This document shows positions 9,876-17,489 of a stretch of 45,085 nt of DNA, piece by piece. Under the pieces are notes generated by a model that had not been told where the DNA came from, searched no databases, and worked only from the letters and a program-made list of their open reading frames with translations. Source of the DNA: a virus (Duplodnaviria > Heunggongvirae > Uroviricota > Caudoviricetes); the IMG/VR virus record IMGVR_UViG_2718217859_000005. One strand, given 5' to 3'. The stretch's first letter is position 1, and every line of letters begins with the position of its first letter. Both the position numbers and the translations under genes were made by a program.

Positions 9876-10754
9876 ATGATGACGTTTAACCTGCGTGAAC
9901 AACAAACAAGACTACAGGCGCGAATGGATGAGTTACGGGCAGAGATTGCATTTGCTCAGAAGGGCGAAAAGCCATGGCCTTATCGTTCCTGCCTGATGCG
10001 TGAAGGTCGCGGGTATTGCGAAAAACACGGTAAATACCATACGCATATACTGGTGTGGAGCGATCGCAATGGCGAGGACAGAGAAAAAATTTCATGCTGC
10101 CCTGACTGCTTGATCGCTGAGGCCAACGATTTGACCATGGAGCTGTCGTCCCTCAAGGCGGAAGAGCTGACTGATAACGCCGGAATTGCCCTGCGTTTTC
10201 GGGACTGTGAGTTTGATAACTATCTGGAGGTTAATCCTGACGCAGCCAGAAATCTTGCAGCCTGTCGCCGCTATGCGGAGAACTGGCCAGATATGCTGGA
10301 GAACGGCACCAGTCTTGTTATGACTGGCAGTTGCGGTACCGGGAAAAATCATCTGGCGGTATCAATGGCAAAACACATCATCCGTAATCATCTGGCCAGT
10401 GTGGAGATTACTGATGTGATGCGCCTTACCCGTGCTGTGAAAAACTGCTGGCGGAATGACAGCGAAAAAACAGCGGATGAAGTTATTGAGCATTATGCGT
10501 CATTGGATTTGCTGATCATCGACGAAGTCGGCGTTCAGTTTGGCAGCGCGGCTGAAATGGCTATTTTGCAGGAAATTATCAATGCCCGGTACGAAAGCAT
10601 CCTGCCCACCATCCTGATCAGCAACCTTTCACCGGAAGAGTTGTGGGCGTTCATCAGCCCCCGCATTGCCGACAGGATCACAGACGGGGGACGCAACTGG
10701 TTGTCGTTTAACTGGCCCAGCTATCGTGCGCATATTGGAGGTGTGGCTGCATGA
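9876..10754 (+). CDS. DnaC/IstB-like AAA+ ATPase (putative helicase loader) with N-terminal Cys-rich motif
   Basis: Walker A GSCGTGKNHLA and Walker B LLIIDEVG; N-terminal C..C/CCPDC cluster. ATG at 9876 after GAGG (the track start at 9867 is GTG). Confidence 0.75.
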   Translation: MMTFNLREQQTRLQARMDELRAEIAFAQKGEKPWPYRSCLMREGRGYCEKHGKYHTHILVWSDRNGEDREKISCCPDCLIAEANDLTMELSSLKAEELTDNAGIALRFRDCEFDNYLEVNPDAARNLAACRRYAENWPDMLENGTSLVMTGSCGTGKNHLAVSMAKHIIRNHLASVEITDVMRLTRAVKNCWRNDSEKTADEVIEHYASLDLLIIDEVGVQFGSAAEMAILQEIINARYESILPTILISNLSPEELWAFISPRIADRITDGGRNWLSFNWPSYRAHIGGVAA

Positions 10755-12142
10755 CCACTCCAGTATGGCGTAACGATGATCTGGAAGGCGCTGTCATTGG
10801 CGCGTTTTTTCTGCGTGGGGCAGATCATGAAGTGATGGATATTCTGGCCACACTGCCAGCGGACGTTTTTTCTGTACGAGCGTATAGGGATATCTACACA
10901 GGCATCTGCCGACAGGCTCGTGTTTCAGGTGTGATTGATCCTGTGCTGCTGTGTAATGAAATGCCGGAACTTGCTCCGGTGATTACTGATACCGGGCGTA
11001 AAAGCTGGGTGAAGTCGTCACTGGAGCACTATGTTGCAGCGTTGCGTCGCAATGCCGCACTGCGTGATGCAGAAAAGACGCTGAATGAGGCGTTGCAGAA
11101 ATTACGTGATGCGCATACCTGTGAAGCAGCTGAAGATGCCCTGAAGGATGCGCAGAACATGATGGCCTCATTGTCGATGGAAAAAGGCGCAATTCAGCCG
11201 GTACATATTGATGATGTGCTTCCGGAAGTGGTTGACCGTGTTGAATGCCGGAATCAGGGGCTGGAGAAATCCAGGACGTTGATGACCGGTATTGATGAAC
11301 TGGACGCAAAAACAGGCGGCATGGAGCCCGGCGACCTGGTATTTATTGCGGCTCGTCCGTCAATGGGCAAAACCGAACTGGCGCTGGATATCATCGACAA
11401 AGTGACTGAACAGGGGCGCGGTGTTCTTCTGTTCACAATGGAAATGGCGAACATTCAGATCGGTGAACGCATGGTGTCTGCTGCCGGAGGAATGCCTGTA
11501 TCGCGCCTGAAATCTGTCTCTCACTTTGGTGACGAAGACTGGGCGCGTTTCATTAAGGGTGTGGAGCTGATGACCGGACGCAATATCTGGATGGTGGACC
11601 AGGCGAACCTGACCATTGACGAGATATGCGTAACAACGAAACACCATTTGATTAAACATCCGGAAACGGCACTGGTGGTGGTTGATTATCTCGGGCTGAT
11701 AAAAACCCGAACCACGGGGCGTCATGACCTTGCCGTGGGTGAAATCTCAAAGGGGCTTAAAGGCCTGGCAAAATCCGGCGGATTACCGGTGGTTGCGCTG
11801 AGCCAGCTTTCCCGTGGTGTGGAGTCCAGGCCCAATAAACGCCCTATGAACTCAGACCTGAAAAACTCCGGAGAAATAGAGGCGGATGCAGACATCATTC
11901 TGATGCTTTACAGGGATGAAGTGTACAACCCGGATACGCAGGCCAGAGGCATTGCAGAAATCAATATCACGAAACAACGTAACGGTTCTCTGGGGACGAT
12001 TTACCGACGTTTTTATAACGGACATTTTCTGCCTGTAGACCAGGAAAGCGCGCAGGTTCTTTCCACATCAATGCAGCCGTCCAGACCGCGCAGATACAGT
12101 AACAAACGAACCGACAGTAGTAAGATGGAGCGTTTCTTTTGA
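10751..12142 (+). CDS. DnaB-like replicative helicase
   Basis: 463 aa; RecA-like C-terminal domain with Walker A ARPSMGKT and DnaB-like motifs (VVVDYLGLI, LSQLSRGVE). Confidence 0.8.
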   Translation: MTTPVWRNDDLEGAVIGAFFLRGADHEVMDILATLPADVFSVRAYRDIYTGICRQARVSGVIDPVLLCNEMPELAPVITDTGRKSWVKSSLEHYVAALRRNAALRDAEKTLNEALQKLRDAHTCEAAEDALKDAQNMMASLSMEKGAIQPVHIDDVLPEVVDRVECRNQGLEKSRTLMTGIDELDAKTGGMEPGDLVFIAARPSMGKTELALDIIDKVTEQGRGVLLFTMEMANIQIGERMVSAAGGMPVSRLKSVSHFGDEDWARFIKGVELMTGRNIWMVDQANLTIDEICVTTKHHLIKHPETALVVVDYLGLIKTRTTGRHDLAVGEISKGLKGLAKSGGLPVVALSQLSRGVESRPNKRPMNSDLKNSGEIEADADIILMLYRDEVYNPDTQARGIAEINITKQRNGSLGTIYRRFYNGHFLPVDQESAQVLSTSMQPSRPRRYSNKRTDSSKMERFF

Positions 12143-12153
12143 ACAACCAGACA

Positions 12154-12396
12154 ATGACTTTTACCCCTGAACAATTACGCAAACAGGCGCAGGAAATGCT
12201 GCGACAGGCGGAACAACTGGAAAAATCAGGCGTAACAAAAGATGCCATTCGTCGGGATATGGTACCCGCGCTCAGAGAACTGATGCAGGCAAAACACCGC
12301 GCACAAAAAGCAGTGGATGAGCTGGTGGATTGTGTGGCAGAGCTGGAAACCAAAGTTGGAAAGTTTGAAAAACTAGTGCAGGAGGTACTGCGCTGA
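12154..12396 (+). CDS. Hypothetical coiled-coil protein
   Basis: Track ORF 12139..12396; the first ATG is at 12154 and a TTG at 12139 has a GGAG RBS. Highly charged helical sequence. Confidence 0.35.
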
Positions 12397-12761
12397 TGCG
12401 TGATATTCAGATGGTTCTTGAGCGTTGGGGGGCGTGGGTGGCAAATAACCACGAAGATGTTACCTGGTCGTCGATTGCTGCGGGATTCAAAGGACTGATT
12501 CCGTCAAAGGTTAAGTCACGTCCGCAATGTTGTGACGATGACGCGATGATCATTTGTGGTTGCATGGCTCGTCTGAAAAAGAACAACCGTGACTTGCATG
12601 ATCTGCTCGTGGATTATTACGTTGGGGGAATGACTTTTATGGCGCTTGCAAGGAAACATGGACGTTCAGATTGCTGGGTTGGTCGTTTGTTGCAAAAAGC
12701 AGAGGGGATCGTGGCTGGTATGTTAATGATGTTGGATGTCAAACTAGAGATGGAATATTAA
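12396..12761 (+). CDS. Q: Late-gene antiterminator Q-like protein (small Phage_antitermQ type)
   Basis: 121 aa with a Cys cluster ([12 protein letters not shown]); last gene of the early-right operon immediately before the late region; resembles the small Q proteins of E. coli cryptic lambdoid prophages as recalled. Confidence 0.6.
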
Positions 12762-12928
12762 TTTAATTCTCATAGAATTCTTTTCTTTATGAGGGGCGAA
12801 TAATGCCCCTAAACTAGAATATTATAGCTGCCTCATTATCTGGGCAGCATTAGGTTGTTGAGTGGTTTTCGCTATTAAAGCAATCATTCAAAAGGTATAA
12901 AATATGAAGCTGGGTTCTATATTAACGC

Positions 12929-14116
12929 TTACTCCATGCTAAGTGAATCCTGATAGCGCTTAAATGCCTCCGCGAAAGCTAGAGCAGCATCAGCATTTGA
13001 TACCATGTATTCTTCTGTAATGCCTGTTTGGGACTGGAAATATAACTTTCCATAAATGCAAATTGGGATTTGATAGTTATCTTTAAATCGTCGGTCTGGT
13101 GAGCCATCTTTATTTGTTTTTGCCCATGTATGCCCAGCTATGCTGGCATCACTCGGAACACCATCCTCTTCATGGAACCCTTGATGCTGCGCATTAATTT
13201 GTAATTCCCGTAAGTCAATCAGAGCAAATGCCCCATCGGGGCGAGGAATTACAGCAATACCCGGATAAAGCAATATATCGTCGCCATTGACATTTTCAAA
13301 TCGCATTGCTCTTCCAGTAAAACGAATTAGATCTGTTGAAGCGAAATCAAATACGACTGGATGACGATCAACTGCTCGTGTAGCTAACGTCCTTTCTGCA
13401 AACTGATCTATAGCTTTATCTGCGGTAATATCCCATTTTTTGATACTTGATTTTAAAATATCGAAAGCACGAATCATTGCTGCATAAGCCCGCTGTGAGG
13501 AATCGCTGGTTTCGAAATTAATGACGATTTTAGTGTTATCTTCCCAGGATACAAGACGAGATACTTCTGCTTGTATTTGTGGTAGCGTTGCTTCAAGTTC
13601 TGCAATGCGACGTTTATAAAACCATCGAAACAGGCTTGATTTACGTCGAGCCAATTCACTCTTTTGTCTTGATTCTTCTGCAAGAGCCTCTTGTAAGTCA
13701 GATGCTATTTCCGCTCTTTGTTCTCGTGCTTTAACGATCAAGTCTCGTAAAGGTAAAAGAGATGTACTTGTCAAGGCCTCTACTGAGGCACTGGAGATTT
13801 CATTCATGCCTGTTTGTGGCATGTACATTTTTGCGTTTGATGGGGTGTTGTCTGAAATTAACTCGGGTGCATCAATATGAGATTCTACAGACGACGGATT
13901 TAGCTGAATGGTTGTGGATGGTTTGTCTTTGTATGGTAAACGAGGGGATGTATACGATAAACCAGATCCTGGTAACCCTAGAGTTGCTTTAATTCCTTTT
14001 TGGTTAACATTAACTGTGGCTCCGGGGACACCAAAACTTGCGCTTACCCCATGTTTACCGATGTTAAGGCGTACTCCGGGGAAAATGGTAAAAGTTTGTC
14101 TGAAGCGAAGAGACAT
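12929..14116 (-). CDS. DUF4236-like N-terminal domain protein with central coiled coil and unknown C-terminal domain
   Basis: 395 aa; AGGGA RBS. N-terminus MSLRFRQTFTIFPGVRLNIGKHGVSASFGVPGATVNVNQKGIKATLGLPGSGLSY matches the DUF4236 pattern as I remember it; central segment is charged and helical. Convergent with Q. Confidence 0.7.
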   Translation of the reverse strand: MSLRFRQTFTIFPGVRLNIGKHGVSASFGVPGATVNVNQKGIKATLGLPGSGLSYTSPRLPYKDKPSTTIQLNPSSVESHIDAPELISDNTPSNAKMYMPQTGMNEISSASVEALTSTSLLPLRDLIVKAREQRAEIASDLQEALAEESRQKSELARRKSSLFRWFYKRRIAELEATLPQIQAEVSRLVSWEDNTKIVINFETSDSSQRAYAAMIRAFDILKSSIKKWDITADKAIDQFAERTLATRAVDRHPVVFDFASTDLIRFTGRAMRFENVNGDDILLYPGIAVIPRPDGAFALIDLRELQINAQHQGFHEEDGVPSDASIAGHTWAKTNKDGSPDRRFKDNYQIPICIYGKLYFQSQTGITEEYMVSNADAALAFAEAFKRYQDSLSME

Positions 14117-14146
14117 AAGATAATCCCTGTGTAGTAATGTCTAAAG

Positions 14147-14169
14147 TTACATTCCATACTGGAATGTAA
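14147..14169. promoter_or_regulatory. Perfect 9-bp inverted repeat (TTACATTCC-5 nt-GGAATGTAA) in the promoter/5-prime region of the DUF4236-like gene
   Basis: Seen directly, 31-53 nt upstream of the ATG at 14116, within the AT-rich divergent intergenic region 14117-14454. Confidence 0.45.
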
Positions 14170-14454
14170 TACTGCGATGAGACACGAGGCTCATTAAGGA
14201 TTTTTGCATTTTGCTGACATAAATTCTATAAAAATTATGGTGATAAACGTTTTACAATCGTAAAAAAACAAATATGCTGTTAAGAGTGGTACTACGCCAC
14301 ACAGCTTAAACCTGCCGTCGAGCGGTTTTTTTGTACCTGTAAACCTAGTGCAGTACAGTAAACTCGCTGGTGGTTGTGAATACTGACTTTTTATCTTGCT
14401 GGCTTTTTAGACAAGAGTTATTGGTATGTCATGTTAACCAGAAGGGAAAAAGAC

Positions 14455-14652
14455 ATGCTAAAACAGCAGGATATGACCGAAACCGCCAGAGTGGTGTTTA
14501 ATGAATTAAGCGTCACCGAACCGGCGACCGTCGGGGAAATTGCGCAGAATACTTACCTTTCACGCGAACGCTGCCAGTTAATACTGACTCAGCTTGTTAT
14601 GGCGGGTCTGGCAGATTATCAGTTCGGTTGTTACAGACGTCTTCCGCAGTGA
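14455..14652 (+). CDS. Small winged-helix regulator, PapI/FaeA-like
   Basis: ATG at 14455 with an AAGGGA RBS (track ORF starts at 14431). About 66 aa; pattern ...ATVGEIAQNTYLSRERCQLILTQLVMAGL... resembles PapI-family regulators. Confidence 0.45.
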   Translation: MLKQQDMTETARVVFNELSVTEPATVGEIAQNTYLSRERCQLILTQLVMAGLADYQFGCYRRLPQ

Positions 14653-14788
14653 AGGCTTTTTAATTCGTGGTAATGGGCGGCTGGTGGGTGTTAGCGGCAC
14701 CTGTCAGTCATTTGCTTATGTGTTGATGAGAATTTACTTTTTGGGGCTATAATTAAGCTAACCAATTGCTAATTAAAGTAAAATTATA

Positions 14789-15502
14789 ATGGATGTTGTC
14801 TGTTCAGTTATCATGGTTTGCTCCCCAATTAATATTTTTCTTGAAAAGGATACGTTGTCACTTAAGCCCGGCTCAGTCGTTCTGGCCACCAAATGCATCA
14901 GGGAGCTTTTCCTTATGCATTATGGCAAAGTAAAAATTGTCGATATAAGCCATTCTATAGTAAGTCAATATCTGGAAAGCCAGCATAAGCTGACAAGAGG
15001 TCCTCTGACTGACATTCCACTTTACTTGTTGCTGGACCCCAACAATCCTGCGCTGGCTGCAGCTTTAATTACCAGCCAGAGATTTTCCGGAGAGACCACG
15101 GATATGTTTCTTATGATGGCCTGCCTGTCGCTGTTTGAATCAGATGAACGGATGTCATTATTTTTAAGTGGATGTGTATCCAGTATAAGTGTCAAAGTCA
15201 GAGCGATTATTCAAACAGATATATCATCAAGCTGGACGCTTGGTGCGATTGCTCTACAGTTGCATATGAGTGAGAGCTTGTTAAAGAAAAAACTCAAGGA
15301 TGAAGGTCTCAGGTTCAGTAATTTGTTACTTGAGGAACGGATGCGGGTTGCTGTAAATATGTTATGTTCCCGACATGGATATGGACAGGCTGTAGCAGAA
15401 AAATGCGGTTATTCAAGTAGGTCCTACTTTATCTCTGTATTTCACCGCTATTATGGCTTCCCGCCAGACAGATATGTATCTATGCAAGGGCTTGATTTTT
15501 GA
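14789..15502 (+). CDS. AraC-family transcriptional regulator (Rns/AggR-like size and layout)
   Basis: C-terminal AraC-type double HTH (LGAIALQLHMSESLLKKKLKDEG... and ...VAEKCGYSSRSYFISVFHRYYGFPPDRY); AT-rich gene; true start may be an internal Met. Confidence 0.75.
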   Translation: MDVVCSVIMVCSPINIFLEKDTLSLKPGSVVLATKCIRELFLMHYGKVKIVDISHSIVSQYLESQHKLTRGPLTDIPLYLLLDPNNPALAAALITSQRFSGETTDMFLMMACLSLFESDERMSLFLSGCVSSISVKVRAIIQTDISSSWTLGAIALQLHMSESLLKKKLKDEGLRFSNLLLEERMRVAVNMLCSRHGYGQAVAEKCGYSSRSYFISVFHRYYGFPPDRYVSMQGLDF

Positions 15503-15528: not shown

Positions 15529-15604
15529 GGCCCTTTAGCTCAGTGGTGAGAGCGAGCGACTCATAATCGCCAGGTCGCTGGTTCAAATCCAGCAAGGGCC
15601 ACCA
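15529..15604 (+). tRNA. tRNA with CAU anticodon (Ile2/lysidine-type or Met), ileX-like
   Basis: 76 nt; 7-bp acceptor stem GGCCCTT/AAGGGCC, anticodon loop CTCATAA, T-loop TTCAAAT, encoded CCA. Closely resembles E. coli ileX as recalled. Confidence 0.85.
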
Positions 15605-15605
15605 A

Positions 15606-15682
15606 CCGCCACTAGCTCATCAGGAAAGAGAGTCAACCCTTTAAGTTGAGAGTGCGAGGTTCGAGTCTCCGGTGGCGGTCCA
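15606..15682 (+). tRNA. Degenerate tRNA-like element (possible pseudo-tRNA; anticodon-loop CCTTTAA)
   Basis: Perfect acceptor stem (CCGCCAC/GTGGCGG) and anticodon stem (TCAAC/GTTGA), but a mismatch in the D-stem and in the T-stem, and C instead of U at position 33. Confidence 0.4.
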
Positions 15683-15684
15683 GT

Positions 15685-15760
<76 letters not shown>

Positions 15761-15763
15761 TAT

Positions 15764-15838
<75 letters not shown>

Positions 15839-16892: not shown

Positions 16893-17086
16893 AATGTTAA
16901 ATCCATCACAATTAAGTTGATTGGGCATTGCTGGTTGACGGAGCTTTTGTTAGAAAAAATTTGCATGGTGGATCCCCCCGGGTGGTGGGCATATGAGTGA
17001 TGTATGTTTCTGTTCTGCTCCTTTATTATGCTGATTCGGGTACTGATACTGAATTCATCGGGAGGCACCCGGCACCATGCAAGCAT

Positions 17087-17109
17087 GCCCCTCTCCTGAG
17101 GGGCTTTTT
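17087..17109 (+). terminator. Rho-independent terminator
   Basis: Hairpin GCCCCTC-TCCT-GAGGGGC followed by TTTTTA. Confidence 0.5.
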
Positions 17110-17153: not shown

Positions 17154-17489
17154 TTATGGCCTGTGTCGTTTTAGTCCGTAGGGGCATATTTGCAGAATGC
17201 AACGGTTATTAAAGCATTCATTAAATACGTTATCTGAATTTGCAGGGCATTCCTGGCTGTTTTTGATTAAATCCCAGAATCTTTTATTGAATGGTACAAC
17301 GTTGTAAATGGTTACAGGTAGCACTTTGTTATTGAGTACGATACCTGTGTGAGTCAGCGTAAATATACTTTCAGGAGGTAAGAAAACATCCGATTGATAC
17401 CAGATTATTAATTTTATTTTACTCCATATGGCTGAAAAAGATATTCCACATGATGGCTGGATAACTGTGTCAATCACAATCCACTTCAT
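17154..17489 (-). CDS. Hypothetical Cys-rich protein (111 aa)
   Basis: Track ORF with a good AAGGA RBS 7 nt upstream of the ATG at 17489; AT-rich; Cys-rich C-terminus ([27 protein letters not shown]). Confidence 0.35.

What the first reader, a model, noticed from the sequence alone, without database searches (positions are those of the whole stretch)
12762..14454. Convergent DUF4236-like gene immediately after Q with a perfect palindrome in its promoter region
The first gene after the Q antiterminator is on the opposite strand, so any Q-dependent late transcription heading for the lysis genes must run antisense through it. This is a typical cargo arrangement at the Q-to-S hotspot, where Stx phages carry toxin genes. 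The 395-aa product has an N-terminus resembling the DUF4236 signature, a central charged coiled coil and an unassigned C-terminal domain of about 200 aa. A perfect 9-bp inverted repeat (TTACATTCC-5 nt-GGAATGTAA, 14147-14169) sits 31-53 nt upstream of its start, suggesting a dedicated dimeric regulator or an RNA structure. The gene would be expressed in the lysogen and silenced by antisense transcription on induction, the pattern expected of a lysogen-protective function.
Basis: partly seen in the sequence, partly recalled or inferred. Interest (0 to 1): 0.7.

Follow-up and report, generated by a model that had tools for sequence, protein, structure and literature searches.

The report
Prophage cargo gene between Q and late promoter
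A strongly conserved gene of unknown function sits as swappable cargo between an E. coli prophage's late-gene activator (Q) and the late promoter; it is a reasonable but untested candidate anti-phage gene, and the proposed antisense switch and palindrome operator do not hold up.

Summary
The sequence facts are right. A 395-aa reverse-strand ORF (12929-14116) follows a Q21/QuuD-type Q gene. It has a DUF4236 N-terminus (E 2e-19), a long helix and a roughly 200-aa C-terminal domain. A perfect inverted repeat, really 10+3+10 nt, lies at 14147-14169.

Two parts of the interpretation fail.

1. The candidate late promoter, leader and terminator (14251-14333) lie to the right of the gene. This block stays put in related phages whose slot holds other cargo, and it starts 37 bp after Q in a phage with an empty slot. 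Q-modified late transcription therefore starts beyond the gene and runs away from it.
2. The palindrome is perfect only in this near-clonal lineage. Four 92-93% identical cassettes carry an imperfect version. It looks like a corrected quasi-palindrome, not a conserved operator.

The gene is real and strongly constrained (dN/dS 0.06-0.09, synonymous sites saturated between genera). It occurs alone in several prophage slots, an ICE, plasmids and chromosomes. It sits beside two Gabija subtypes, type I Zorya and candidate PDC-S31. It matches no PADLOC model and no solved structure. The C-terminal domain is weakly PH-like, and longer relatives add a membrane helix plus periplasmic SH3, PG-binding or PDZ domains.

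Best reading: a moron in a variable slot between Q and the late promoter, probably an envelope-proximal defence or exclusion factor. Function is untested.

The parts
12396..12761 (+). Q antiterminator gene, 121 aa, Q21/QuuD type. Its stop codon is the left edge of the variable slot.
   Evidence: PF06530 at 1.9e-51. Q21 structures 6p18/6jnx at 3.5e-9. 82-84% nucleotide identity to quuD. Similarity to a phage with different cargo ends at the Q stop codon.
12792..12848 (.). Two hairpins in the 167-nt gap between the converging Q and cargo genes (GGGGC-N7-GCCCC and GCUGCC-N10-GGCAGC). On the minus strand the second is followed by a U-rich tail and may terminate the cargo transcript.
   Evidence: RNA folds: minus strand z = -3.5, plus strand z = -2.1. 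Neither was called a canonical terminator by the scan.
12929..14116 (-). Cargo CDS, 395 aa. Domain map: DUF4236 beta-hairpin repeats, residues 3-56 (nt 13949-14110); fast-evolving linker, residues 57-89; conserved N-x-P-x-x-A-x-x-Y-x-P motif region plus long helix, residues 90-195; PH-like C-terminal domain, residues 196-395 (nt 12932-13531).
   Evidence: (phrog_17982 at 3.4e-172). dN/dS 0.06-0.09 against other genera.
14124..14128 (-). Shine-Dalgarno AGGGA, 7 nt before the ATG. It is part of the ACACAGGGAT motif conserved upstream of the Klebsiella copy, with one substitution in the Serratia ICE copy.
   Evidence: DNA similarity to those copies extends only 22-27 bp upstream of the CDS.
14147..14169 (.). 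Perfect inverted repeat TTACATTCCA-TAC-TGGAATGTAA. Lineage-specific, probably a corrected quasi-palindrome. If the cargo transcript starts upstream of it, it would form a hairpin in the 5' UTR.
   Evidence: Imperfect (TTAT-TGCCA left arm in gene orientation) in L003, L110, L111 and L112. The hairpin folds only in the window version.
14251..14278 (+). Candidate late promoter pR': -35 TTTACA, 16-nt spacer, -10 TATGCT.
   Evidence: Promoter scan. Shared with phages carrying a different cargo. The hexamer at the -10 position keeps A at position 2 and T at position 6 in phiP27 (TATCCT), Edwardsiella (TAACAT) and 1720a-02 (CAGTAT). The transcription start is not mapped.
14279..14313 (+). Conserved leader GTTAAGAGTGGTACTACGCCACACAGCTTAAACC. 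Candidate initial transcribed region and Q-loading (qut) region.
   Evidence: Near-identical in five Q21/QuuD-type phages and conserved in an Edwardsiella prophage. Absent in SfV, which has another Q type.
14314..14333 (+). Short hairpin followed by T7: candidate tR', the terminator that Q must override.
   Evidence: Terminator scan. The homologous site is annotated as a putative rho-independent terminator in SfV. The stem is kept with different loop bases across phages.
14455..14652 (+). First gene after the terminator: a 65-aa winged-helix (TrmB-like) protein conserved across these phages. It marks the start of the late-side conserved region.
   Evidence: RefSeq annotation. phrog_331 at 1.2e-37. 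Present in phiP27, SfV, PhiR40_1, Stx2a_1447, 1720a-02 and vB_EcoS-569R4.

Best explanation
The region 12762 to about 14250 is a self-contained cargo insertion (a moron). It sits in a variable slot between the stop codon of a QuuD/Q21-type Q gene and the phage's late promoter, leader and terminator.

Shown by sequence comparison:
- The slot is empty in one related phage. In others it holds a 148-aa reverse gene, two different two-gene reverse cassettes, or a forward PD-Lambda-1-like nuclease gene. Here and in an Edwardsiella prophage it holds the DUF4236 gene.
- The conserved late block lies to the right of the cargo.

Inferred from that layout:
- Q-modified RNA polymerase starts beyond the gene and moves away from it. 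Only early rightward (pR) transcription reading through Q could collide with it.
- The gene is read leftward from a promoter somewhere in 14117-14250. That promoter is not identified.

Shown about the product:
- No transmembrane segment was seen in the sequence.
- It has an N-terminal DUF4236 module of about 2.5 beta-hairpin repeats, a variable linker, a conserved motif followed by an 80-residue helix, and a weakly PH-like C-terminal domain.
- It is under strong purifying selection.
- It occurs as a single gene in prophages, an ICE, plasmids and chromosomes.

Inferred about its function:
- It provides an accessory function in the lysogen, most likely anti-phage defence or superinfection exclusion.
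- It probably acts at the inner face of the cell envelope. Longer relatives tether the same core to the membrane and cell wall through one transmembrane helix plus periplasmic SH3, PG-binding or PDZ domains.
- The PH-like domain would be the ligand or peptide sensor, and the coiled coil and DUF4236 the assembly or output part.

The perfect palindrome is a recent lineage-specific change, probably a quasi-palindrome corrected by template switching. At most it adds a hairpin to the 5' UTR.
For: Slot and late block:
- Similarity to a phage with other cargo stops at the Q stop codon and resumes at about 14251.
- Five Q21-type phages carrying three kinds of cargo share the leader and terminator. SfV, with another Q type, shares only the terminator onward and annotates it as a terminator.
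- In phage 1720a-02 the slot is empty and the block begins 37 bp after Q.
- Stx2a_1447 and vB_EcoS-569R4 carry two reverse genes there.
- The phiP27 cargo matches PD-Lambda-1 at 2e-89.
- The Edwardsiella prophage has Q, then reverse DUF4236, then the same leader and T-run, with holin genes further downstream.
- The canonical order Q, pR', pause element, terminator, late genes is described in bioRxiv 10.1101/651190.

Foreign origin:
- GC is about 40% against 52% in the replication genes.
- The gene is in 13 of 5,426 E. coli genomes.

Protein:
- DUF4236 at 2e-19.
- 62-82% identity from Enterobacterales to Rhodobacterales.
- dN/dS 0.06-0.09 with saturated dS.
- AF2 model, mean pLDDT 72.8.
- Relatives carry a transmembrane helix plus SH3_3, PG_binding_1 or PDZ.

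Mobile-element and defence context:
- Prophage end next to ssrA.
- After lambda P.
- An ICE beside Gabija.
- A plasmid beside a second Gabija subtype.
- Directly after ZorD in Roseibium and Labrenzia.
- Beside PDC-S31.

Palindrome.
Against: - No PADLOC model matches the protein. There is no NCBIfam name and no PDB sequence relative.
- No enzymatic or pore-forming effector domain was detected, which is unusual for a single-gene defence system.
- Strong sequence conservation across proteobacterial classes is not typical of fast-evolving defence genes.
- Some copies sit among housekeeping genes with no mobile-element markers (Paracoccus; Phaeobacter). One lies next to avrBs3 on a Xanthomonas plasmid. 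A 35% identical homologue lies after the terminase in a Microcystis phage.
- The late-promoter assignment rests on comparison and consensus only. The -35 element is poor in phiP27, 1720a-02 and Edwardsiella, no clear sigma-dependent pause element was recognised, and no transcription start is mapped.
- No sigma-70 consensus promoter was found for the cargo gene itself.
Confidence: 0.5

Rival explanations
1. The gene lies inside the Q-dependent late transcription unit. It is expressed in the lysogen and silenced by antisense late transcription on induction. The palindrome is the operator of a dedicated dimeric regulator.
For: The gene is convergent with Q. There is a real precedent: in phi80 the reverse-strand defence gene taiEcA falls when Q is expressed (PMC11364771). 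The palindrome is unlikely to be pure chance.
Against: The conserved promoter, leader and terminator lie to the right of the gene in every cargo-bearing relative. In the relative with an empty slot the block directly follows Q. The sequence just after Q (12762-12928) belongs to the cargo and is absent from phages with about 90% identical Q. The palindrome is imperfect in four close relatives and absent in other genera. No adjacent regulator gene travels with the cargo.
Confidence: 0.07
2. A weaker version of the switch. Early rightward (pR) transcription that reads through Q continues into the cargo and dampens it by convergent collision during lytic growth, independently of Q.
For: No canonical + strand terminator lies between the Q stop and the cargo stop. 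Only two hairpins without U-tracts on the + strand are present. The same convergent Q/cargo layout recurs in Edwardsiella.
Against: This is purely inferred. In other prophages the same gene is co-oriented with early genes (after lambda P) or sits at the prophage end. Convergence with an upstream operon is therefore not a conserved feature of the family.
Confidence: 0.3
3. The protein is an envelope- or cell-wall-associated lysogenic-conversion or host-physiology factor, for example a membrane-stress, morphology or virulence accessory. It has no role in phage defence.
For: Relatives carry a transmembrane helix plus PG_binding_1, SH3_3 or PDZ. One metagenomic relative lies next to a PspA_IM30 gene. 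Some copies sit among housekeeping genes or next to avrBs3. Sequence constraint is very strong. No defence model matches.
Against: The gene repeatedly sits directly beside Gabija (two subtypes), Zorya and PDC-S31, and it shares its slot with a PD-Lambda-1-like gene. The 395-aa form lacks the membrane anchor and wall-binding domains.
Confidence: 0.25
4. The protein serves the mobile element's own life cycle or counter-defence, for example a lytic-cycle accessory, an anti-defence factor or a lysis helper, rather than protecting the host.
For: A 35% identical full-length homologue lies directly after the terminase in a Microcystis phage. The DUF4236 N-domain alone occurs in many phage genomes, including large Klebsiella and jumbo Brevundimonas phages. 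The wall-binding domains seen in relatives are typical of endolysins (own knowledge).
Against: In the window and in Edwardsiella the gene is on the strand opposite all lytic operons and outside the late unit. It also occurs on conjugative elements, plasmids and plain chromosome.
Confidence: 0.1

Closest known systems
Classical lambdoid morons in the Q-to-lysis region (for example nmpC on the reverse strand after quuD in prophage DLP12; bor and lom of lambda), cited from my own knowledge of these genomes
   Same: A single low-GC gene placed between genes that are adjacent in a related phage, oriented independently of the phage operons and presumably expressed from the prophage. The Q here is 82-84% identical in DNA to quuD.
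   Different: The product is not an outer-membrane protein. No signal peptide or transmembrane segment was seen in the sequence. Its own promoter and terminator are not demonstrated. The slot is specifically upstream of the late promoter.
TaiEcA/AtiEcA of phage phi80 (PMC11364771)
   Same: A reverse-oriented prophage defence gene whose level is tied to Q-driven late transcription.
   Different: tai lies upstream of the packaging module and its expression falls when Q is expressed. The DUF4236 gene lies upstream of the candidate late promoter. There is no sequence relationship.
PD-Lambda-1-like GIY-YIG/T5orf172 gene L22 of Stx2e phage phiP27
   Same: It occupies exactly the same slot between Q and the late block and matches a defence model in PADLOC at 2e-89. 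This shows the slot can hold a defence-type gene.
   Different: It is on the forward strand, is a nuclease-type protein and is unrelated in sequence and fold.
Bacterial and eukaryotic PH/PTB-like domains (for example Sin1 PH 3voq, IRS-1 PTB 5u1m, Exiguobacterium bacterial PH 3b77)
   Different: Sequence identity is 6-10%. No Pfam bPH family matches and Foldseek E-values are not significant. The domain is about 200 residues, roughly twice a canonical PH domain, and has many invariant charged residues.
Single-gene prophage defence proteins such as BstA
   Same: A solitary prophage gene, widespread in Gram-negative prophages and present at several positions. BstA lies about 3 kb from the DUF4236 gene in one Enterobacter prophage.
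   Different: No homology, no demonstrated phenotype, and no recognisable DNA-binding or effector domain.

Membership tests
Pfam DUF4236 (PF14020) | HMM match above the gathering score, at the extreme N-terminus | tested here: met
   70.2 bits against a cut-off of 27, E 2e-19, residues 3-56 covering model positions 1-55 of 55. In 90 other DUF4236 ORFs taken from the first matched residue, the domain is again at the start.
PHROG phrog_17982 (phage protein family, function unknown) | Full-length HMM match | tested here: met
   E 3.4e-172, residues 1-393 against model positions 1-382 of 390.
Known or candidate anti-phage defence systems (PADLOC-DB 2.0) | Match to any defence protein model | tested here: not met
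   No families at E <= 0.1.
Defence-island gene (guilt by association) | Recurrent location next to known defence systems in unrelated genomes | tested here: inconclusive
   Adjacent to Gabija in a Serratia ICE, to a different Gabija subtype on a Serratia plasmid, to type I Zorya in Roseibium and Labrenzia, and to PDC-S31 in E. coli prophages. Other contexts show nothing. No genome-wide enrichment statistic was computed.
Moron (independent cargo unit in a phage genome) | Inserted between genes or elements that are adjacent in a related phage | tested here: met
   In phage 1720a-02, Q is followed after 37 bp by the same late block.
Moron (independent cargo unit in a phage genome) | Base composition different from neighbouring phage genes | tested here: met
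   38-43% GC across 12700-14500 against 52% across 10500-12100.
Moron (independent cargo unit in a phage genome) | Own promoter and terminator | tested here: inconclusive
   No minus-strand sigma-70 consensus match upstream of the gene and no canonical terminator. Two downstream hairpins have a minus-strand fold z of -3.5.
Reverse gene embedded in the Q-dependent late operon (antisense-regulated, as for phi80 tai) | Gene lies downstream of the late promoter and terminator, on the opposite strand | tested here: not met
   The conserved candidate promoter, leader and terminator at 14251-14333 lie beyond the 5' end of the gene.
Operator palindrome of a dedicated regulator | Inverted repeat conserved in orthologous upstream regions | tested here: not met
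   Imperfect in L003, L110, L111 and L112. Absent in Edwardsiella, Klebsiella, Serratia and Phaeobacter.
PH-like fold superfamily | Seven-stranded beta-sandwich closed by a C-terminal helix, with significant structural similarity | tested here: inconclusive
Pfam bacterial PH families (bPH_1 to bPH_6) | HMM match | tested here: not met
   No Pfam family other than DUF4236 at E < 0.04.
Q21-type Q regulatory cassette (Q, pR', QBE, sigma-dependent pause element, terminator) | Q protein homologous to Q21 | tested here: met
   phmmer E 3.5e-9 to 6p18/6jnx.
Q21-type Q regulatory cassette (Q, pR', QBE, sigma-dependent pause element, terminator) | Direct-repeat QBE and a -10-like pause element next to the promoter | tested here: inconclusive
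   By eye I could not recognise two 8-bp direct repeats or a clear TAnnnT pause element in 14245-14313. The Q here is only distantly related to Q21, so its site may differ.

The most novel reading that the evidence does not exclude
The DUF4236, coiled-coil and PH-like protein is a previously unrecognised single-gene anti-phage or superinfection-exclusion family, with membrane- and wall-anchored paralogues that mark it as an envelope-proximal sensor. In addition, the gap between QuuD/Q21-type Q genes and their late promoter is an unrecognised hotspot where lambdoid and Stx phages exchange defence cargo that escapes late-operon transcription.
Probability: 0.3. Interest if true: 0.6.

Novelty: new member of a known kind. 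Interest (0 to 1): 0.4.

Why it matters
If the protein does block phages, it would add a compact defence family with no nuclease, NTPase or pore domain. It is carried by prophages, ICEs and plasmids of Enterobacterales (including STEC, Klebsiella, Serratia and Enterobacter) and of marine alphaproteobacteria. It would also link the widespread but uncharacterised DUF4236 module to a function.

Separately, the slot between Q and the late promoter gives a simple anchor for mining cargo in lambdoid and Stx phages. The anchor is the Q stop codon on one side and the conserved GTTAAGAGTGG leader on the other. This slot is distinct from the stx slot, which lies downstream of the terminator. Cargo placed there is transcriptionally insulated from the late operon.

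If the protein has no such role, this is one more conserved hypothetical moron.

Tried and rejected
- PADLOC, NCBIfam and a PDB sequence-profile search on the protein found nothing.
- A literature search for DUF4236 found one incidental mention and no functional data.
- Rfam found no known RNA family in 12762-14454.
- The afdb50 fold library was unavailable. Foldseek against PDB gave only non-significant PH-domain hits. BFVD returned only other DUF4236 proteins.
- I looked for a shared mobile cassette with flanks. DNA similarity to the Serratia and Klebsiella copies covers only the CDS plus 22-27 bp, so no common promoter or terminator travels with the gene.
- I tried to place a sigma-70 promoter for the cargo gene by consensus and by comparison with the Edwardsiella, Klebsiella and Serratia upstream regions. 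No consistent candidate emerged. Edwardsiella has a plausible TTGCGT-N17-TATATT, but the window has no equivalent.
- I tried to recognise a Q21-style direct-repeat QBE and a pause element in the leader. Neither was recognisable.
- K-12 AB1157 was fetched to inspect the DLP12 slot. The record does not annotate nmpC or the lysis genes next to quuD, so it was uninformative.
- I considered the palindrome as a translational regulator and rejected it. The hairpin ends 22 nt 5' of the Shine-Dalgarno and does not pair with it in the predicted fold.
Full report
**1. Where the window comes from**

The window is an E. coli lambdoid prophage. Region 12396-14700 is 100% identical to the chromosome of strain 08-00022 and to about ten other isolates, mostly from cattle. 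Only 13 of 5,426 complete E. coli genomes carry the full segment. RefSeq annotates the local order as follows:
- replicative helicase
- an 85-aa protein
- antiterminator Q
- a DUF4236 protein on the reverse strand
- a 65-aa hypothetical protein
- an AraC-like regulator
- tRNAs
- TerB, DUF3927 and IraM (reverse)
- holin and lysozyme

**2.

- ORF 12929-14116 (-) encodes 395 aa.
- Its N-terminus matches Pfam DUF4236 at 2e-19, residues 3-56. The upstream + strand gene is Q (PF06530, 1.9e-51).
- This Q is related to the structurally solved Q21 (E 3.5e-9). In DNA it is 82-84% identical to quuD of prophage DLP12.
- AF2, run on a 36-sequence alignment (mean pLDDT 72.8), predicts four parts:
  - six short strands over residues 7-56;
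  - a low-confidence stretch over 64-116;
  - one long helix over 117-195;
  - an alpha/beta domain over 205-393.
- The inverted repeat is TTACATTCCA-TAC-TGGAATGTAA at 14147-14169, with 10-nt arms, 31-53 nt upstream of the ATG.
- It exceeds chance. The window has 2 such perfect repeats, with 0.39 expected. The chance of one in a 134-nt region of this composition is about 0.002.

**3. The late promoter lies beyond the gene**

I aligned the window with prophages that have about 90% identical Q but different neighbours.
- Similarity ends at the Q stop codon (12761). It resumes at about 14251, at TTTACA-N16-TATGCT.
- That promoter-like element is followed by a 35-nt leader (GTTAAGAGTGG...CAGCTTAAAC), then a short hairpin with a T7 run at 14314-14333.
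- Five Q21/QuuD-type phages share the block from the -10 hexamer rightwards, whatever lies between Q and it. SfV has a different Q type and shares only the terminator and what follows. Its record annotates that site as a putative rho-independent terminator.
- That pattern is expected if the promoter and leader co-vary with Q.

| Phage or locus | Content of the slot |
|---|---|
| Window, and O158:H23 locus L003 | DUF4236 gene, reverse |
| L002 and phage PhiR40_1 | 148-aa gene, reverse |
| Stx2e phage phiP27 | 409-aa gene, forward |
| Stx2a_1447 and vB_EcoS-569R4 | two different two-gene reverse cassettes |
| Stx2 phage 1720a-02 | empty; block starts 37 bp after Q |

- The 1720a-02 layout is the canonical order of Q, pR', pause element, terminator and late genes described for Q21 (bioRxiv 10.1101/651190).
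- An Edwardsiella tarda prophage repeats the window's layout. It has Q (PF06530), then a convergent DUF4236 gene (73% identical protein), then the same leader (GTTAAGAGTGGTCACTTCG...) with a T-run, with holin genes further downstream.
- At the position of the -10 hexamer the phages read TATGCT, TATCCT, TAACAT and CAGTAT. All keep A at position 2 and T at position 6.

My conclusion is that Q-modified transcription starts to the right of the cargo and runs away from it.
- This rests on comparison and consensus only. No transcription start is mapped.
- I could not recognise a Q21-style QBE or a pause element.
- The stx genes of phiP27 lie downstream of this block, so the toxin slot and this slot are different.
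- What could still collide with the gene is early pR transcription reading through Q. There is no canonical + strand terminator in 12762-12928, only two hairpins. That is inference.

**4. The palindrome is lineage-specific**

- Four cassettes with 92-93% identical proteins (L003, L110, L111, L112) are otherwise near-identical upstream. In gene orientation they read GTATTAT-TGCCAGTATGGAATGTAAC. The window reads GTATTACATTCCAGTATGGAATGTAAC.
- The difference is a tight cluster, one indel plus two substitutions within 5 nt. That cluster turns a bulged quasi-palindrome into a perfect one.
- Such clusters are the known signature of template-switch (quasi-palindrome) mutation. I cite that from established knowledge. 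The direction of change is inferred by parsimony, four lineages against one.
- The RNA hairpin forms only in the window version: -18.7 kcal/mol, z = -2.4, against z = 0.07 for L003. It does not pair with the Shine-Dalgarno.
- No inverted repeat occurs at that position upstream of the Edwardsiella, Klebsiella, Serratia or Phaeobacter genes. The Klebsiella upstream contains an unrelated 14-nt repeat about 166 nt before the ATG.
- DNA similarity to the Serratia and Klebsiella copies stops 22-27 bp upstream of the CDS.
- A conserved operator for a dedicated regulator is therefore not supported. No regulator gene travels with the cargo either.

**5. The gene is real and strongly constrained**

- Full-length homologues are 62-82% identical from Enterobacterales to Rhodobacterales.
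- Against Serratia, Klebsiella, Enterobacter and Edwardsiella copies, dN/dS is 0.06-0.09 with synonymous sites saturated. The high protein identity therefore reflects constraint, not recent transfer.
- The linker (residues 57-89) evolves several times faster than the three conserved modules.
- The stretch 90-116 has low AF2 confidence (pLDDT below 50 over 94-116) but is nearly invariant. It includes N90, P92, A95, Y98 and P100. This suggests a docking motif, but that is speculation.

**6. What the protein resembles**

- No PADLOC model matches. There is no NCBIfam name, no PDB sequence relative and no functional literature.
- An exhaustive search with residues 196-395 found 2,940 cluster representatives at E <= 0.001.
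- Many representatives are longer. Of the ten I scanned with Pfam, eight have DUF4236 at the N-terminus. Sequence inspection of four of the long ones shows a hydrophobic transmembrane helix after the core. Beyond the helix, Pfam finds SH3_3/SH3_4, PG_binding_1 or PDZ in six.
- That topology puts the conserved core on the cytoplasmic face of the inner membrane, tethered to the wall. The 395-aa form lacks the anchor.
- A census of 90 other DUF4236 proteins shows the module at the start of each ORF as extracted. Most carry no other known domain. Occasional fusions are to SH3_3, Zn-ribbon, Mrr-type nuclease, AAA or FtsK-gamma.

**7. Genomic contexts**

The gene travels alone and occupies several kinds of cargo position.

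| Context |
|---|
| Slot between Q and the late promoter, E. coli and Edwardsiella |
| After lambda-P-like replication genes in Enterobacter prophages, with BstA about 3 kb away |
| Prophage end next to tail-fibre genes and ssrA/smpB in Klebsiella |
| E. coli O8:H25, beside a DUF2971 protein that matches candidate PDC-S31 |
| Serratia ICE variable region, directly beside Gabija |
| Serratia conjugative plasmid, beside a different Gabija subtype, separated by an IS110 |
| Directly downstream of type I Zorya (ZorB, ZorC and ZorD matched) in Roseibium and Labrenzia |
| Xanthomonas plasmids near avrBs3 |
| After the terminase in a Microcystis phage (35% identity) |
| Plain chromosome in Paracoccus and Phaeobacter |

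- One alternative occupant of the window's slot, phiP27 L22, matches the PADLOC defence model PD-Lambda-1 at 2e-89.
- Together this is suggestive guilt-by-association for a defence or exclusion role. It is not a test, and I computed no enrichment statistic.

**8. Best explanation and rivals**

- Most likely, the region is a moron in a variable slot between Q and the late promoter. It is insulated from the late operon. It encodes a protein with no detected membrane anchor that acts as an accessory factor in the lysogen, probably anti-phage defence or superinfection exclusion near the inner face of the envelope.
- In that reading the PH-like domain is the sensor, and the coiled coil and DUF4236 are the assembly or output part.
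- The genomic layout is well supported. The function is inferred. Overall confidence is about 0.5.
- Rivals:
  - damping by read-through early transcription (about 0.3; it can coexist with the main explanation);
  - an envelope or host-physiology factor unrelated to defence (about 0.25);
  - a phage life-cycle or counter-defence role (about 0.1).

**9. Novelty and interest**

- Reverse-strand morons after Q and prophage-borne defence genes are well known. An antisense link between late transcription and a defence gene has been shown for phi80 tai (PMC11364771).
- New here are the precise placement of a swappable slot upstream of the late promoter in QuuD/Q21-type phages, and the description of an uncharacterised, strongly constrained DUF4236, coiled-coil and PH-like family with membrane-anchored relatives.
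- Without a phenotype this is a moderately interesting candidate, not a surprise. Interest is 0.4.

Noticed in passing
window 17154-17489 (-): An IraM-like anti-adapter gene lies on the reverse strand between the TerB/DUF3927 genes and the holin. It is therefore inside the presumed late transcription unit.
   Followed up: no
window 14455-14652 (+): A 65-aa winged-helix (TrmB-like, phrog_331) gene is the first gene after the candidate late terminator. It is conserved at that position in phiP27 (L23), SfV (orf47), PhiR40_1, Stx2a_1447, 1720a-02 and vB_EcoS-569R4. Its function is unknown.
   Followed up: partly
window 14279-14313 (+); L104 5917-5885 (-): The 35-nt leader GTTAAGAGTGGT(T/C)ACTTCG(C/A)CACACAGCTTAA is conserved between E. 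coli phages and an Edwardsiella prophage, while the -35 region varies. It is a candidate Q-utilisation site for the short QuuD-type Q proteins. I could not see a Q21-style direct-repeat QBE in it.
   Followed up: partly
L015 1250-2479 (phiP27 L22); L106 561-2124 (Stx2a_1447); L108 658-2053 (vB_EcoS-569R4); L002 5447-5893: The same slot between Q and the late promoter holds other cargo in other phages. These are a PD-Lambda-1-like GIY-YIG/T5orf172 gene (PADLOC 2e-89), two different two-gene reverse cassettes with no matches in PADLOC, Pfam or (for the larger gene of each) NCBIfam, and a 148-aa reverse gene. The slot looks like an unexplored cargo hotspot.
   Followed up: partly
window 14789-15502 (+): An AraC-family regulator (phrog_1450) with its best NCBIfam similarity to YdeO and GadX. 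It resembles the prophage-encoded acid-resistance regulators of EHEC (my own knowledge). It sits between the late terminator and the tRNA cluster.
   Followed up: no
window 15529-15838 (+): Four tandem tRNA genes were called by ARAGORN with anticodons CAT, TTT, TGT and TCC. RefSeq labels the CAT one tRNA-Ile and does not annotate the tRNA-Lys(TTT), which scores only 33 bits in Rfam.
   Followed up: no
window 16934-17109 (+): A match to the sRNA family STnc100 (Rfam RF02076, 93.7 bits, E 5e-20) lies between the TerB/DUF3927 genes and IraM.
   Followed up: no
P0172, P0236, P0128, P0152 (relatives of the C-terminal domain): Longer relatives have the same DUF4236, coiled-coil and PH-like core followed by one transmembrane helix. 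P0172, P0236 and P0128 then carry periplasmic PG_binding_1, SH3_3 or PDZ domains. P0152 has no Pfam hit beyond DUF4236. This suggests a cytoplasmic core anchored to the cell wall.
   Followed up: partly
Klebsiella pneumoniae plasmids, for example NZ_CP089512.1 6333-7142: Six Klebsiella plasmids carry unannotated copies that match only residues 124-393 at 80% identity. These are probably 5'-truncated pseudogenes of the same family.
   Followed up: no
L012 9800-12605 and L010 9414-13012: Two different Gabija subtypes (best PADLOC models GajA 00102 with GajB 00148, against GajA 00101 with GajB 00145) each lie next to an 82% identical DUF4236 gene, one on a Serratia plasmid and one in a Serratia ICE. 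The repeated pairing with Gabija in particular is unexplained.
   Followed up: partly
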